Shown here: positions 51,937 to 54,668 of the stretch, in pieces
How the letters are laid out: the number at the start of each line of letters is the position of its first letter
Position numbering within the stretch: the stretch's first letter is position 1
NCBI GenBank assembly: GCA_963784355.1
Contig: CAWAQU010000012.1
Location: 64,001-128,000, forward strand
DNA from: an uncultured bacterium
GTDB lineage: Bacteria; Patescibacteriota; JACMRA01
Direction of reading: 5' to 3'
Length of the DNA stretch: 64,000 bases
Made by a program: the position numbers and the translations under genes
The notes under the pieces: model-generated
Told to the model about the DNA's origin: nothing
Databases searched by the model: none
The model's input: the letters and a program-made list of their open reading frames with translations, nothing else

Positions 51937-52647
51937 CTACAAAATTTGGCCACTCTGTATTGATGTTTTGTTGTTCAATATTCCTTCAAGTGTTTTAATT
52001 TCTTGAGTTTGGGTGTCAATTATACTTGTTGTAATTTGTTTAATTTTTTCATTTTGCACTTTATTTTGCGCTAGCTTAGTCATGTCGATTGCTTCTTTGT
52101 GATGCTTAATCATATCCATAATATAGGCCTTGTCTAATTCTACACCTCTGAAGTTACTCAAATCCATCATAGGTTTGTAATCAAATTTTGAAGGCAGATC
52201 AGATTGATATAAATTTTTATATTGCAAAGTCATTTCACTGATTTCGGAAGTCTGTTTTTCGATGACCTTTTGAGCAAAATTCTTTAGTTCCTGGTTTTGG
52301 CTTCTAGATAATATAATCACTGAACTATCAATCGCTTCTTGGTGATGAGGAACCATGTGTAAAATAAAATCTTTATCATTACTTATTTCGTCATTATTAT
52401 GATGGTCCTCCCTTTTATTGTTCATCTTTTTTTCTGCTTTCTTGTTTTGTTTAATTGATTGTTTTTCATCATTCATCTTTTTAAGAGTTGACTTATCGGG
52501 ACTTGATAAACCAGTAATATAGAGTAAAGGTATGAGTAAAGTCAAACCAATTGCTAGCAAAGCTACAGTAATTAAGCCGGCAGTAAGTGGAGAGAATTTC
52601 TTGCCATTTGGTATATTTGATTCAGAAATATTTTTGTTTTCAACCAT
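51937..52647 (-). CDS. DUF305 (ferritin-like, CopM-like) protein
   Basis: Duplicated MVPHHQEAI / MIKHHKEAI...Q-x2-EI motifs; N-terminal TM. Confidence 0.85.
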   Translation of the reverse strand: MVENKNISESNIPNGKKFSPLTAGLITVALLAIGLTLLIPLLYITGLSSPDKSTLKKMNDEKQSIKQNKKAEKKMNNKREDHHNNDEISNDKDFILHMVPHHQEAIDSSVIILSRSQNQELKNFAQKVIEKQTSEISEMTLQYKNLYQSDLPSKFDYKPMMDLSNFRGVELDKAYIMDMIKHHKEAIDMTKLAQNKVQNEKIKQITTSIIDTQTQEIKTLEGILNNKTSIQSGQIL

Positions 52648-52793
52648 AATTTGTTATTTAACTAAACCTATAATATTCAAACGAAGACCTATTGTCAATC
52701 ATAAAATAGGGTACAACAGAATAAGACACTTGACAAAATCAGTAAAATCTCAGATAAGTTTATAGATATTAATACCTTTGCCACAATAATAAT

Positions 52794-53387
52794 ATGCTTC
52801 AGAATTACGAACTTTATATTATTTTCAACCCTGAATTATCCAGTGAAGAAATCCAAAAAGAACAAGACACAATTAACTCTATTTTAACCACAGATCTTAA
52901 AGCTCAAAATTTGGATGTGCAATCTGAGGGTTTGAGAAAATTGGCTTATCCTATTAGTAAACACCGAACAGGATTCTACTCTCTGGCTAATTTTGACATT
53001 GATATGTCGGATGCTAGAAATTTAAAGAATCTAGAGAAAAAATTGAACTTAAGCGAAAATGTAATTCGTTATATTATCATTAATCAAACTGACTACCTAA
53101 AGCAAAAATCCAAAGAAAAGAGAAATGACGTTGAAATAGTAAATCACAGAGAATTGAATAAGGGTAAGTCAAAAGCTAAAAAATGTATTTCTAAATACAT
53201 GGGATTAAAAGTAGTTGATTACAAAGATGTAAGTTACTTAAGCCAATTTGTATCACCATATTCTAAAATCTTTATTCGTGAGAAAACTGGATCCAGTGCT
53301 AAATTCCAAAGAAAAATTACGCAAGCTGTAAAAAGAGCGAGACATATGGCTCTTATGTCATTCACTCCCATACATAATGACCAATAA
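52794..53387 (+). CDS. rpsF-rpsR: fused 30S ribosomal proteins S6-S18
   Basis: S6: YELYIIFNP, GLRKLAYPI, G-F-Y, VIRY; S18: VDYKD, KTG, FQRKITQAVKRARHMAL, in one frame. Confidence 0.9.
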   Translation: MLQNYELYIIFNPELSSEEIQKEQDTINSILTTDLKAQNLDVQSEGLRKLAYPISKHRTGFYSLANFDIDMSDARNLKNLEKKLNLSENVIRYIIINQTDYLKQKSKEKRNDVEIVNHRELNKGKSKAKKCISKYMGLKVVDYKDVSYLSQFVSPYSKIFIREKTGSSAKFQRKITQAVKRARHMALMSFTPIHNDQ

Positions 53388-53397
53388 ATTTATTATT

Positions 53398-53423
53398 ACC
53401 TGAACATCGCTTCAGGTTTTTTT
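53398..53423 (+). terminator. intrinsic terminator after the S6-S18 gene
   Basis: ACCTGAA-catcgc-TTCAGGT plus T run abutting the next ATG. Confidence 0.7.
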
Positions 53424-53825
53424 ATGTTTGATATAATTGCAGTAGATTGGGGTGAGAAAAGATGTGGCATTGCTTTTGGTGATCAAAAAACCGATTTGGT
53501 TATTGCCTACAAAAAAGACTGTTATACCCAAGAGGTTTGGGAAATTTTAGCTGAGGAAATAAGCCAAAAAAAAATCAAAATTGCAGTAATTGGTTTACCT
53601 TCCAATTTTAATGGAAAGCCCACAGAAGTAACTAAAAAAATTGAGTTGTTTATTGAAAACTTCAAAGTGGTTTTTCCGGGTATTGAAGTAATTACTTTAA
53701 ATGAAAGAAATAGCACAAAAGAAGCACTAATTGGATATAAGATTATTGATAAACATATAATAAATCATCAAGCTGCAGCAAAAATACTTGAGTATTATTT
53801 CACTGATAAATCATTGCGTAAATAA
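53424..53825 (+). CDS. ruvX: YqgF/RuvX family nuclease
   Basis: AVDWGEKRCGIA, VIGLP, NERNST, AAAKILE. Confidence 0.85.
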   Translation: MFDIIAVDWGEKRCGIAFGDQKTDLVIAYKKDCYTQEVWEILAEEISQKKIKIAVIGLPSNFNGKPTEVTKKIELFIENFKVVFPGIEVITLNERNSTKEALIGYKIIDKHIINHQAAAKILEYYFTDKSLRK

Positions 53826-53849: not shown

Positions 53850-54668
53850 CTAACTAAGAGTAATTTCTCGTAAAATATCCCATACAGTTTGTTTTTGCGA
53901 CGAGGATAATTCGAAGGGAAGTTTATGTGTTAGGTTGCGTAAAAAATCAACATCCAGATGCCCTATTTTGGCAGGTTTATCAACTCTTTTTAGCTCTATA
54001 TACTTCAACAAACAAAGCCTCAAAAAAACCCTAAAAGTAGTCCAGGAACTTAGACTTTCTTGATAATGCTTAGCTGATTTTGGGTGATGAATGCCGCCGA
54101 GATCCAGAATTTCTTTCAATATTGAGCTTTTAGGTACGAGGCCTTGTAAATTTAAAACATAATCAATAGGCTTAAGACGTCTATGGAGTGCGACTATTTC
54201 GGCTCCTGTGAGAGTTTCAATTCTAAGATATTTTGCTACTAAGTAAGGTCTTAATTCTGCTTGTCCAAGTATGAAATTATATTTGTTGATAGCATCTTTT
54301 TTTAAAGAAAATTTTTCTATATTCCAAAAACCGCTATGAAATTTGAGTAATAGCTGATATTCTTTACCAATTTCTAAAAGTTTGTAGGTAAACTTAGATA
54401 CGGAAAACAAGTAACATTTTAGTTGCCAGCCACCGTCAAAATCTAAAATAAAATAATTTTTTTGAGCTTTTTTCTGAGTAATATTTACAAGTTTTGCATT
54501 CCACAAGTAAGTAATTTTCTCTTCAGGTAAATCATGAATATTCTCTAAAGGCTTGATCTCAGTTAAATCGTAGGGTAGGTAGGTAATAAAATCATACAGG
54601 TTTGTTATACCTACTTTTTCTAGCTTTTGTATTTGTAGTGGTGTAAATCTATCTTTTAGTCCCAACAT
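53850..54668 (-). CDS. recG: RecG N-terminal (wedge) region only
   Basis: LEKVGITNLYDFITYLP, IHHP, LPFELSSSQKQTVWDI then stop before Walker A. Confidence 0.7.
   Translation of the reverse strand: MLGLKDRFTPLQIQKLEKVGITNLYDFITYLPYDLTEIKPLENIHDLPEEKITYLWNAKLVNITQKKAQKNYFILDFDGGWQLKCYLFSVSKFTYKLLEIGKEYQLLLKFHSGFWNIEKFSLKKDAINKYNFILGQAELRPYLVAKYLRIETLTGAEIVALHRRLKPIDYVLNLQGLVPKSSILKEILDLGGIHHPKSAKHYQESLSSWTTFRVFLRLCLLKYIELKRVDKPAKIGHLDVDFLRNLTHKLPFELSSSQKQTVWDILREITLS

What the first reader, a model, noticed from the sequence alone, without database searches (positions are those of the whole stretch)
52794..53387. Ribosomal proteins S6 and S18 fused into one polypeptide, with ssb absent
Seen: a complete S6 domain, a roughly 35-aa charged linker and a complete S18 core (one Cys only, so not a zinc-ribbon form) in one 197-aa frame, followed by a terminator. 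Established: S6 and S18 form an obligate heterodimer on the 30S platform near the anti-SD and are normally separate genes in rpsF-ssb(priB)-rpsR. Inference: a covalent heterodimer that may be a lineage marker and may relate to SD-independent initiation.
Basis: partly seen in the sequence, partly recalled or inferred. Interest (0 to 1): 0.75.

Follow-up and report, generated by a model that had tools for sequence, protein, structure and literature searches.

The report
Fused ribosomal proteins S6 and S18
Two small-subunit ribosomal proteins that normally pair as separate chains are encoded here as one conserved polypeptide, a real trait shared by a whole class of tiny Patescibacteria, and similar fusions exist in other bacterial groups.

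Summary
Window 52794..53387 (+) is one uninterrupted 197-aa frame with a full bS6 domain (residues 4-96), a 32-aa linker and a full bS18 (129-197); both pass the Pfam and NCBIfam cut-offs.

It is the only S6 and the only S18 found in the 1.14-Mb genome. ssb sits on another contig.

It is not an assembly error. 120 of 120 listed homologues from independent assemblies carry both domains. In the genome's GTDB class, 23 of 27 species genomes carry the fused gene, and the other 4 have neither domain.

In 401 Patescibacteria genomes the fusion appears only in this class. Five of five checked relatives with split genes have rpsF-ssb-rpsR.

The linker has a fixed length (31-33 aa), is better conserved than the S6 domain, and is modelled with high confidence.

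The architecture is not unique: other S6-S18 fusions exist, some labelled Gemmatimonadota.

The proposed link to SD-independent initiation is not specific. This genome lacks SD motifs, but so do several split-gene Patescibacteria.

The class also lacks detectable bS21 and the zinc motif of S18.

Verdict: a real, ancient, lineage-marking fusion of moderate interest.

The parts
52794..53387 (+). Fused rpsF-rpsR gene: bS6-linker-bS18, 197 aa plus stop
   Evidence: ORF list and sequence. Both Pfam and both NCBIfam models are above cut-off. It is the only S6 and the only S18 hit in the genome.
52803..53081 (+). bS6 domain (residues 4-96)
   Evidence: PF01250, 71.4 bits. The AF2 model shows beta-alpha-beta-beta-alpha-beta elements. 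Foldseek matches to S6 chains give target TM-scores of mostly 0.8-0.9.
53082..53177 (+). Conserved linker (residues 97-128): S6 C-terminal helix plus S18 N-terminal tail
   Evidence: 31-33 aa in 31 of 31 aligned fusions. Majority-residue frequency is 0.63 against 0.55 for the S6 domain. N122 is invariant, and H118, K105, K107 are conserved in at least 28 of 31. AF2 pLDDT blocks are 94/90/88, with helices at 99-106 and 118-121.
53178..53384 (+). bS18 part (residues 129-197; Pfam core 139-188 = nt 53208-53357)
   Evidence: PF01084 70 bits and TIGR00165 66.6 bits. It aligns without gaps to E. coli S18 residues 9-74. Equivalents of E. coli Y23/K24 and K60/R61/R63 are conserved.
53398..53427 (+). 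Terminator-like hairpin and T-run; the T-run abuts the ATG of the next gene (ruvX, 53424)
   Evidence: Pattern scan: 1 site found against 0.5 expected. The downstream ORF is PF03652 RuvX. ruvX follows the fused gene in 7 of 10 relatives.
52730..52735 (+). TTGACA box 59 nt upstream of the ATG (possible -35)
   Evidence: Read from the sequence. A TTGACA box is visible upstream of the fused gene in all 11 aligned upstream regions (read by eye). The pattern scan did not pair it with a -10. Its role as a promoter element is inferred.

Best explanation
This is the functional, single-copy gene for a covalently joined bS6-bS18 ribosomal protein.

The likely history is as follows. In the ancestor of one class of Patescibacteria, the phylum's usual rpsF-ssb-rpsR operon lost ssb, which moved elsewhere in the genome. 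The rpsF stop codon was then lost. As a result the C-terminal tail of bS6 and the N-terminal tail of bS18 became one fixed-length, ordered 32-aa linker.

The product most likely does what the separate proteins do. They normally form a heterodimer before binding the uS15-primed central domain of 16S rRNA on the 30S platform. The fusion supplies both partners in forced 1:1 stoichiometry with no need for prior dimerisation.

Shown here: the architecture, single copy, class-wide conservation, relocation of ssb, conservation of the S18 rRNA-contact and S6-interface residues, linker constraint, and a confident single-body model. Inferred: expression, incorporation into ribosomes as an uncleaved chain, and the order of evolutionary events.
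For: Architecture and family membership.

Single copy: only one S6 hit and one S18 hit in the genome, both in the same 204-aa open frame.

Not an artefact: 137 homologues at E<=1e-3, and the best 120 listed all carry PF01250+PF01084. They are 191-220 aa, 48-72% identical apart from the window's own entry, and come from NCBI, JGI, ENA and Logan assemblies.

Class-wide: 23 of 27 species genomes have a full-length, stop-free match, including a single-contig 1.27-Mb genome. The other 4 genomes (73-80% complete) have neither an S6 nor an S18 Pfam hit.

Phylum scan of 401 genomes: stop-free matches spanning both domains occur only in 21 genomes of this class.

Ancestral state: ssb lies between S6 and S18 in 5 of 5 split genomes checked (coordinates). 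ssb lies elsewhere in 5 of 5 fused genomes checked, 49 kb away in the closed one.

Functional residues: the query aligns without gaps to E. coli S18 (129-194 against 9-74). E. coli Y23/K24 (S6 interface) and K60/R61/R63 (contacts to C719/C720), as described in PMC4647458 (passages), therefore correspond to Y143/K144 and K180/R181/R183. These are present in 30, 31, 31, 29 and 30 of 31 fusions.

Linker: fixed length and higher conservation than the S6 domain.

AF2 with a 31-sequence alignment: mean pLDDT 92.8 and pTM 0.87, with linker blocks at 88-94.

Trees: the class fusions form one group (S6 part SH-aLRT 99, S18 part 85), apart from the other fused groups.
Against: There is no direct evidence of expression or of an uncleaved chain in ribosomes. 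No RNA run was listed, and the only DNA contig laid (161 nt, 52757-52917) does not bridge the linker.

The genome is a MAG estimated 81% complete, so 'no second copy' is not proof for this genome. The closed relative G018 also shows one match only.

AF2 confidence does not show that the inter-domain geometry equals that of the ribosome-bound heterodimer. I could not superpose coordinates.

No autoregulatory rpsF leader was detected, so how the level of the protein is controlled is unknown.
Confidence: 0.88

Rival explanations
1. The fusion is more than a stoichiometric convenience. The conserved linker, together with bS6 and bS18, forms a docking groove for the 3' tail of 16S rRNA (the anti-SD). 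This would resemble the bS6/bS18/bS21 pocket of Bacteroidia and would stand in for the missing bS21, contributing to SD-blind initiation.
For: The 16S rRNA ends in the canonical ...CACCTCCTTTCT, yet SD cores are not enriched upstream of starts: 34 of 742 upstream against 68 of 742 in coding controls. The E. coli control gave 14 of 34 against 0 of 34.

bS21 (PF01165) was found above cut-off in 0 of 27 class genomes. It gave a hit at E<=1e-3 in 130 of 149 other Patescibacteria genomes.

In F. johnsoniae, the 16S 3' tail lies in a groove of bS6 and bS18. U1544 stacks between Trp100 of a Bacteroidetes-specific bS6 C-terminal helix and Phe50 of bS18 (PMC7797042, passages).

Here a helix (99-106) follows the S6 domain. 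It carries an aromatic residue at 101 in 29 of 31 fusions, with K105 in 28 and K107 in 29 of 31.

The Phe50-equivalent position (148, by the alignment) is aromatic in 28 of 31 class fusions. It is aromatic in 0 of 11 split Patescibacteria S18, 0 of 4 Gemmatimonadota-type fusions and 4 of 4 Bacteroidota-like fusions.

The best PDB matches of both halves are Bacteroidota chains (7jil_w, 9i5v_b).
Against: SD-poor starts are not specific to the fusion. Among 17 split-gene Patescibacteria the SD-core fraction was 0-30% (pooled 66 of 488 against 43 of 488 controls), and six genomes were at or below 7%.

The key Bacteroidia element, bS21 with Tyr54, is absent rather than present.

Other Bacteroidetes-specific bS18 residues are not matched. 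Asn56 corresponds to Ser154, and Lys/Arg37 corresponds to position 135 (Tyr in the window protein).

The post-domain S6 helix also exists in split Patescibacteria S6.

The class is a single evolutionary event, so co-occurrence of fusion, bS21 loss and SD-poor starts has n=1.

Gemmatimonadota-type fusions have variable, acidic linkers and lack the aromatic residue.
Confidence: 0.1
2. The single frame yields two separate proteins in the cell, through proteolytic cleavage in the linker or internal initiation. On this view the fusion is only a gene-level economy.
For: None directly. The only internal Met before the S18 core (M136) could in principle serve as a start. Nothing here tests processing.
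Against: M136 is not conserved; most rows of alignment A1 have Leu or Ile there (read by eye). The linker keeps a fixed length of 31-33 aa, has invariant or near-invariant residues, and is modelled as ordered and packed. A disposable spacer would not be expected to show this.
Confidence: 0.06
3. The fusion is an assembly, binning or gene-calling artefact: a lost stop or a chimeric join.
For: The source is a MAG. No reads bridging the linker could be laid.
Against: The same architecture appears in 120 of 120 listed homologues from four data sources, on contigs up to 1.27 Mb, and in 23 species genomes. The two short relatives are fragments that still include linker sequence: P0123 does not begin with Met, and P0124 ends inside the linker.
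Confidence: 0.01

Closest known systems
Separate bS6 and bS18, the obligate heterodimer of the 30S platform (e.g. E. coli; T. thermophilus S15-S6-S18-rRNA complex, PDB 1G1X)
   Same: Both domains pass the family models. The S6 fold matches solved S6 chains, including 1g1x_A (TMt 0.81). The S18 residues for rRNA contact and for the S6 interface are conserved.
   Different: One polypeptide instead of two. A conserved, ordered 32-aa linker is present. No PDB chain covers both halves. ssb is not between the genes.
rpsF-ssb-rpsR operon of other Patescibacteria
   Same: Same phylum. The S6 part is 24-38% and the S18 part 37-58% identical to 12 and 11 split relatives respectively. The 'SP[YH]' motif in S18 and a helix after the S6 domain are shared.
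   Different: Split relatives keep ssb between the two genes (5 of 5). Their S18 carries CxxC...CxxH in 10 of 11; the class has no second Cys of the CxxC in 0 of 31 sequences. Most have bS21 (130 of 149).
S6-S18 fusion proteins of other lineages in public databases (some labelled Gemmatimonadota or Longimicrobiales by NCBI)
   Same: Same domain order, S6 then S18, in one chain of 180-250 aa. All 120 best hits to a profile of 23 distant fusions carry both Pfam domains, as do 10 of 10 tested.
   Different: Only 29% identical overall to a Gemmatimonadota-labelled example. Their linkers are acidic or low-complexity and total lengths vary. They form separate groups in both domain trees, which suggests independent origins.
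Bacteroidia anti-SD sequestration pocket (bS21, bS18, bS6; F. johnsoniae 70S, PDB 7JIL; PMC7797042)
   Same: Canonical anti-SD together with SD-poor genes. An aromatic residue sits at the bS18 Phe50-equivalent, and an aromatic plus lysines sit in a helix after the S6 domain.
   Different: No bS21 was found. The Asn56 and Lys37 equivalents are not matched. The proteins are fused here and separate in Bacteroidia. No structural evidence exists for tail docking.

Membership tests
bS6 (PF01250 / TIGR00166) | Sequence match above the curated cut-offs | tested here: met
   PF01250 71.4 bits against 27; TIGR00166 67.7 bits against 42.9.
bS6 (PF01250 / TIGR00166) | S6 split beta-alpha-beta fold | tested here: met
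   AF2 secondary structure is E-H-E-E-H-E. Foldseek hits to S6 chains give target TM-scores of mostly 0.8-0.9, and 50 of the 50 top rows shown are S6.
bS18 (PF01084 / TIGR00165) | Sequence match above the curated cut-offs | tested here: met
   PF01084 70 bits against 21; TIGR00165 66.6 bits against 38.75.
bS18 (PF01084 / TIGR00165) | Basic residues that contact 16S C719/C720 (E. coli K60, R61, R63) and S6-interface residues (Y23, K24) | tested here: met
   The mapping uses the gap-free alignment 129-194 against 9-74. K180 31/31, R181 29/31, R183 30/31, Y143 30/31, K144 31/31. Residue roles come from PMC4647458.
Zinc-binding (C+) form of bS18 | CxxC ... CxxH/C motif | tested here: not met
   The window protein has one Cys. 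The second Cys of the CxxC (position 134) is present in 0 of 31 class sequences. 10 of 11 split Patescibacteria S18 have CxxC and C..H (the C..H pair was read by eye).
Canonical rpsF-ssb(priB)-rpsR operon | ssb or priB between rpsF and rpsR | tested here: not met
   No gene lies between the two domains. ssb is on contig C9.
rpsF_leader autoregulatory RNA | Conserved structured leader upstream of rpsF that mimics the S6:S18 rRNA site | tested here: not met
   An Rfam scan at E<=10 over 52300-53500 gave 4 weak, unrelated hits and no ribosomal-protein leader. An alignment of 11 upstream regions gave 0 predicted pairs. I did not verify under what name Rfam 15 holds this leader.
Bacteroidia-type anti-SD sequestration | Canonical anti-SD with genome-wide lack of SD | tested here: met
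   The 16S 3' end contains CACCTCCTTTCT. SD core was found upstream of 34 of 742 ORFs against 68 of 742 controls; the E. coli control gave 14 of 34 against 0. The method is crude: it takes the first ATG of ORFs of at least 150 aa.
Bacteroidia-type anti-SD sequestration | bS21 with the signature Tyr54 | tested here: not met
   PF01165 was found above cut-off in 0 of 27 class genomes.
Bacteroidia-type anti-SD sequestration | bS18 Phe50/Asn56/Lys37 and a bS6 C-terminal helix with Trp100/Arg103/Lys107 | tested here: inconclusive
   The Phe50 equivalent is aromatic in 28 of 31, and helix 99-106 carries an aromatic residue in 29 of 31 plus K105 and K107. However, the Asn56 equivalent is Ser154 and the Lys37 equivalent is not basic in the window protein.

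The most novel reading that the evidence does not exclude
In this class of Patescibacteria the fused bS6-bS18 may form a Bacteroidia-like docking site for the 3' tail of 16S rRNA. The relevant features are its conserved linker helix (aromatic residue 101, K105, K107) and the class-specific aromatic residue at the bS18 Phe50-equivalent position. Such a site would do without bS21, which the class lacks. It would be a second, independently evolved structural solution for silencing the anti-SD.
Probability: 0.1. Interest if true: 0.7.

Novelty: new variant of a known kind. Interest (0 to 1): 0.4.

Why it matters
bS6 and bS18 are a textbook example of ribosomal proteins that must pair before binding rRNA. 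A natural, class-wide covalent version with a constrained linker shows that the pair tolerates permanent tethering, and perhaps benefits from it. It gives a simple molecular marker for one deep Patescibacteria lineage. It also explains why annotation pipelines name the gene only 'S18' or only 'S6' and may score one marker as missing.

The fusion co-occurs with relocation of ssb, loss of the S18 zinc motif and absence of detectable bS21. Together these describe a remodelled 30S platform in a lineage with reduced ribosomes. That is a concrete target for cryo-EM or heterologous complementation.

Similar fusions exist elsewhere (Gemmatimonadota-labelled and others), so the architecture can be used for comparative tests of what drives such fusions.

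Tried and rejected
Reads across the linker: the look-up of sequencing runs listed one weak DNA holder (share 0.10) and no RNA holder. Read laying placed a single 161-nt contig at 52757-52917, which does not reach the linker. This gives no evidence either way.

Names came instead from the search for homologous proteins. Only 4 of the 120 listed rows carry an organism name: 3 Gemmatimonadota and 1 Longimicrobiales. My 'GEM' label for P0127, P0129, P0145 and P0190 and my 'Bacteroidota-like', 'alpha-like' and 'gamma-like' impressions of other rows rest on sequence resemblance and tree position only. They are not source labels.

Literature: searches found no description of an S6-S18 fusion. So did term look-ups inside PMC9297842 (only 'bS6 ... 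large in the CPR bacteria'), PMC9723686, PMC9132574 and PMC2837039. Supplements are closed and subscription journals are not covered, so 'not in print' is limited to these searches.

rpsF leader: nothing was found.

Genes with strong SD: the listing was dominated by internal in-frame sites and was not interpretable, so I dropped it.

Possible ssb-rpsR fusions: these were suggested by long open frames around S18 in some phylum members. One case (G290) was checked and the three genes are separate. Loci L071 and L072 were fetched but not examined.

Class name: it could not be determined. Record titles gave only 'bacterium' and 'Patescibacteria group'.

Model geometry: I could not compare the AF2 model with a solved 30S, because no coordinates are available to scripts.

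UNPUBLISHED genome G173 is one of the 401 genomes counted. No claim here rests on it alone.

Full report
WHAT IS THERE. Window 52794..53387 (+) is one ATG-to-TAA frame of 197 codons with no internal stop. Pfam finds Ribosomal_S6 at residues 4-96 (71.4 bits, cut-off 27) and Ribosomal_S18 at 139-188 (70 bits, cut-off 21). The NCBIfam equivalog models for S6 and S18 both pass their cut-offs, covering residues 3-99 and 129-191. Between the folded S6 domain and the start of S18 lie 32 residues (97-128), with 9 K/R and 5 D/E. A terminator-like hairpin follows at 53398-53417 with a T-run. The T-run abuts the ATG of a ruvX gene (PF03652).

IS IT REAL, AND IS IT THE ONLY COPY? The window lies in a 1.14-Mb, 13-contig genome of about 33% GC, estimated 81% complete. 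Searching the whole genome with the two Pfam models gives one hit each, both in this frame. SSB is elsewhere: a 157-aa gene on contig C9 beside ATP-synthase genes and smpB-like ORFs.

A search of 5.8 billion proteins returned 137 homologues. The best 120 listed all carry both Pfam domains, are 191-220 aa long, and are 48-72% identical to the window protein. They come from NCBI, JGI, ENA and Logan assemblies, and sources name them 'S18' or 'S18/S6'. The two short relatives in the exhaustive search are fragments that still contain linker sequence. An assembly artefact is therefore excluded. Direct read support could not be obtained.

HOW FAR DOES IT REACH? The genome's GTDB class consists of a single order with 27 species genomes. 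23 of them have a full-length, stop-free match; one genome, G017, has two. The remaining four (73-80% complete) have neither an S6 nor an S18 Pfam hit, so the region is simply missing from them.

In a sample of 401 Patescibacteria genomes, stop-free matches spanning both domains occur only in this class. Other families show two separate hits, or one. In five of five such genomes, ssb lies exactly between S6 and S18 (coordinates). In five of five fused genomes, ssb is elsewhere, 49 kb away in the closed genome G018. The simplest history is rpsF-ssb-rpsR, then removal of ssb, then loss of the rpsF stop, once, in the class ancestor. The order of these events is inferred.

THE LINKER IS NOT A FLOPPY SPACER. 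Across 31 fusions that are as little as 48% identical to the window protein, the linker is 31-33 aa. Its majority-residue frequency is 0.63, against 0.55 for the S6 domain and 0.77-0.79 for S18. N122 is invariant, H118 is in 30 of 31, K107 in 29 and K105 in 28.

AlphaFold2 with this alignment gives mean pLDDT 92.8 and pTM 0.87. The linker blocks score 94/90/88, and the model has a helix at 99-106 and a short helix at 118-121. The first half continues the C-terminal helix seen after the S6 domain in split Patescibacteria S6 and in P. gingivalis bS6. The second half is the basic N-terminal tail of S18. Foldseek finds S6 chains for the N-terminal half (TMt mostly 0.8-0.9). No solved chain covers both halves.

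FUNCTIONAL RESIDUES. The S18 part aligns without gaps to E. coli S18 (129-194 against 9-74). The residues that PMC4647458 reports at the S6 interface (Y23, K24) and at the rRNA contact (K60, R61, R63) (passages) correspond to Y143, K144, K180, R181 and R183. These are kept in 29-31 of 31 fusions. This fits a protein that still binds 16S rRNA as the heterodimer does.

Unlike its split relatives, whose S18 carries CxxC...CxxH in 10 of 11 cases, the class has lost the zinc motif. A possible reading, which is inference only, is that the covalent tether replaces the stabilisation that the zinc site gave to the S18 N-terminal segment.

NOT UNIQUE. The exhaustive search also found at least 23 full-length S6-S18 fusions only 27-36% identical to the window protein. 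Ten of ten tested carry both domains. A profile built from these 23 retrieved 120 of 120 top hits with both domains, 180-249 aa, on contigs up to 1.98 Mb. Four rows carry names: three 'Gemmatimonadota bacterium' and one 'Longimicrobiales bacterium'.

A named example is 29% identical to the window protein and has an acidic, gappy linker. In trees of the S6 part and the S18 part, the class fusions form one group (SH-aLRT 99 and 85) and the Gemmatimonadota-type sequences form another (100 and 87). The class S6 sits among split Patescibacteria S6, although deep support there is weak. The architecture has therefore most likely arisen several times.

THE SD IDEA. The 16S rRNA keeps the canonical anti-SD. 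I used a crude test: the first ATG of ORFs of at least 150 aa, and any of GGAG, GAGG or AGGA at -20..-4. An SD core occurs upstream of 34 of 742 ORFs, against 68 of 742 coding controls. A 40-kb E. coli control gave 14 of 34 against 0 of 34. Four other genomes of the class gave 7 of 83 against 8 of 83.

However, 17 split-gene Patescibacteria gave 66 of 488 against 43 of 488, with per-genome values from 0 to 30% and six genomes at 7% or less. SD-poor initiation is thus widespread in the sampled phylum and does not depend on the fusion.

Some features keep a weaker form of the idea alive. bS21 was not found above cut-off in any of the 27 class genomes, but it was found in 130 of 149 other Patescibacteria. 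The two aromatic residues that sandwich the last 16S nucleotide in F. johnsoniae are bS6 Trp100 and bS18 Phe50 (PMC7797042). They have aromatic counterparts here: residue 101 in 29 of 31 and residue 148 in 28 of 31. Residue 148 is aromatic in 0 of 11 split Patescibacteria.

Against this, bS21 is the key player in Bacteroidia, other signature residues do not match, and the class is one evolutionary event. I rate this reading at about 0.1.

REGULATION AND CONTEXT. No Rfam family of relevance matches upstream. Eleven aligned upstream regions share no predicted structure. They do share a TTGACA box and a T directly before the ATG in 11 of 11. ruvX follows the fused gene in 7 of 10 relatives, and the upstream neighbour is not conserved.

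VERDICT. This is a genuine, ancient, class-wide fusion of the two partners of an obligate ribosomal heterodimer, with a constrained linker. It is a useful lineage marker and a neat natural experiment. It is also a recurrent architecture already present, though unremarked, in public databases, and its proposed tie to SD-independent initiation is not specific. My literature searches found no description of it.

Noticed in passing
whole genome G000 (e.g. window 52793 before the ATG at 52794): Start codons have a strong T at position -1: 72% of 742 ORFs in this genome and 61% in four class relatives, against 38% pooled in 17 other Patescibacteria and 29% in the E. coli control. G is only about 10% in the 30 nt upstream. 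All 11 fused-gene homologues start TATG.
   Followed up: partly
class genomes G000-G025, G041: Ribosomal protein bS21 (PF01165) was not found above cut-off in any of the 27 genomes of the class, including a single-contig genome. It was found in 130 of 149 other Patescibacteria genomes that are at least 90% complete.
   Followed up: partly
L058-L069 (split relatives) versus window 53178-53384: S18 of other Patescibacteria carries a CxxC...CxxH zinc motif (10 of 11). The fused class has lost it.
   Followed up: partly
G017:C89:1859-2440 and G017:C21:6712-7290: One class genome holds two different fused copies, 60% and 50% identical to the window protein. This could be a mixed bin or true paralogues.
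   Followed up: no
proteins P0159, P0170: Two further S6-S18 fusions group with split Patescibacteria S6 in the S6 tree (SH-aLRT 86 with L060). They may be a second, independent fusion inside the phylum, not seen in the 401-genome sample.
   Followed up: no
class genomes: Estimated completeness of the class is systematically low (64-93%, and 86% for a closed 1.27-Mb genome), while most other sampled Patescibacteria score 95-100%. This suggests that several standard markers are missing or altered in this class.
   Followed up: no
window 53398-53427: The terminator-like hairpin after the fused gene ends 6 nt before the ATG of ruvX. ruvX expression would therefore need read-through or an internal promoter.
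   Followed up: no
window 53850-54668 (-): A 272-aa ORF with no Pfam match is conserved downstream of ruvX in 3 of 10 relatives.
   Followed up: no
protein P0135: A 189-aa protein with a tandem duplication of the S6 domain and no S18 appeared among the hits.
   Followed up: no
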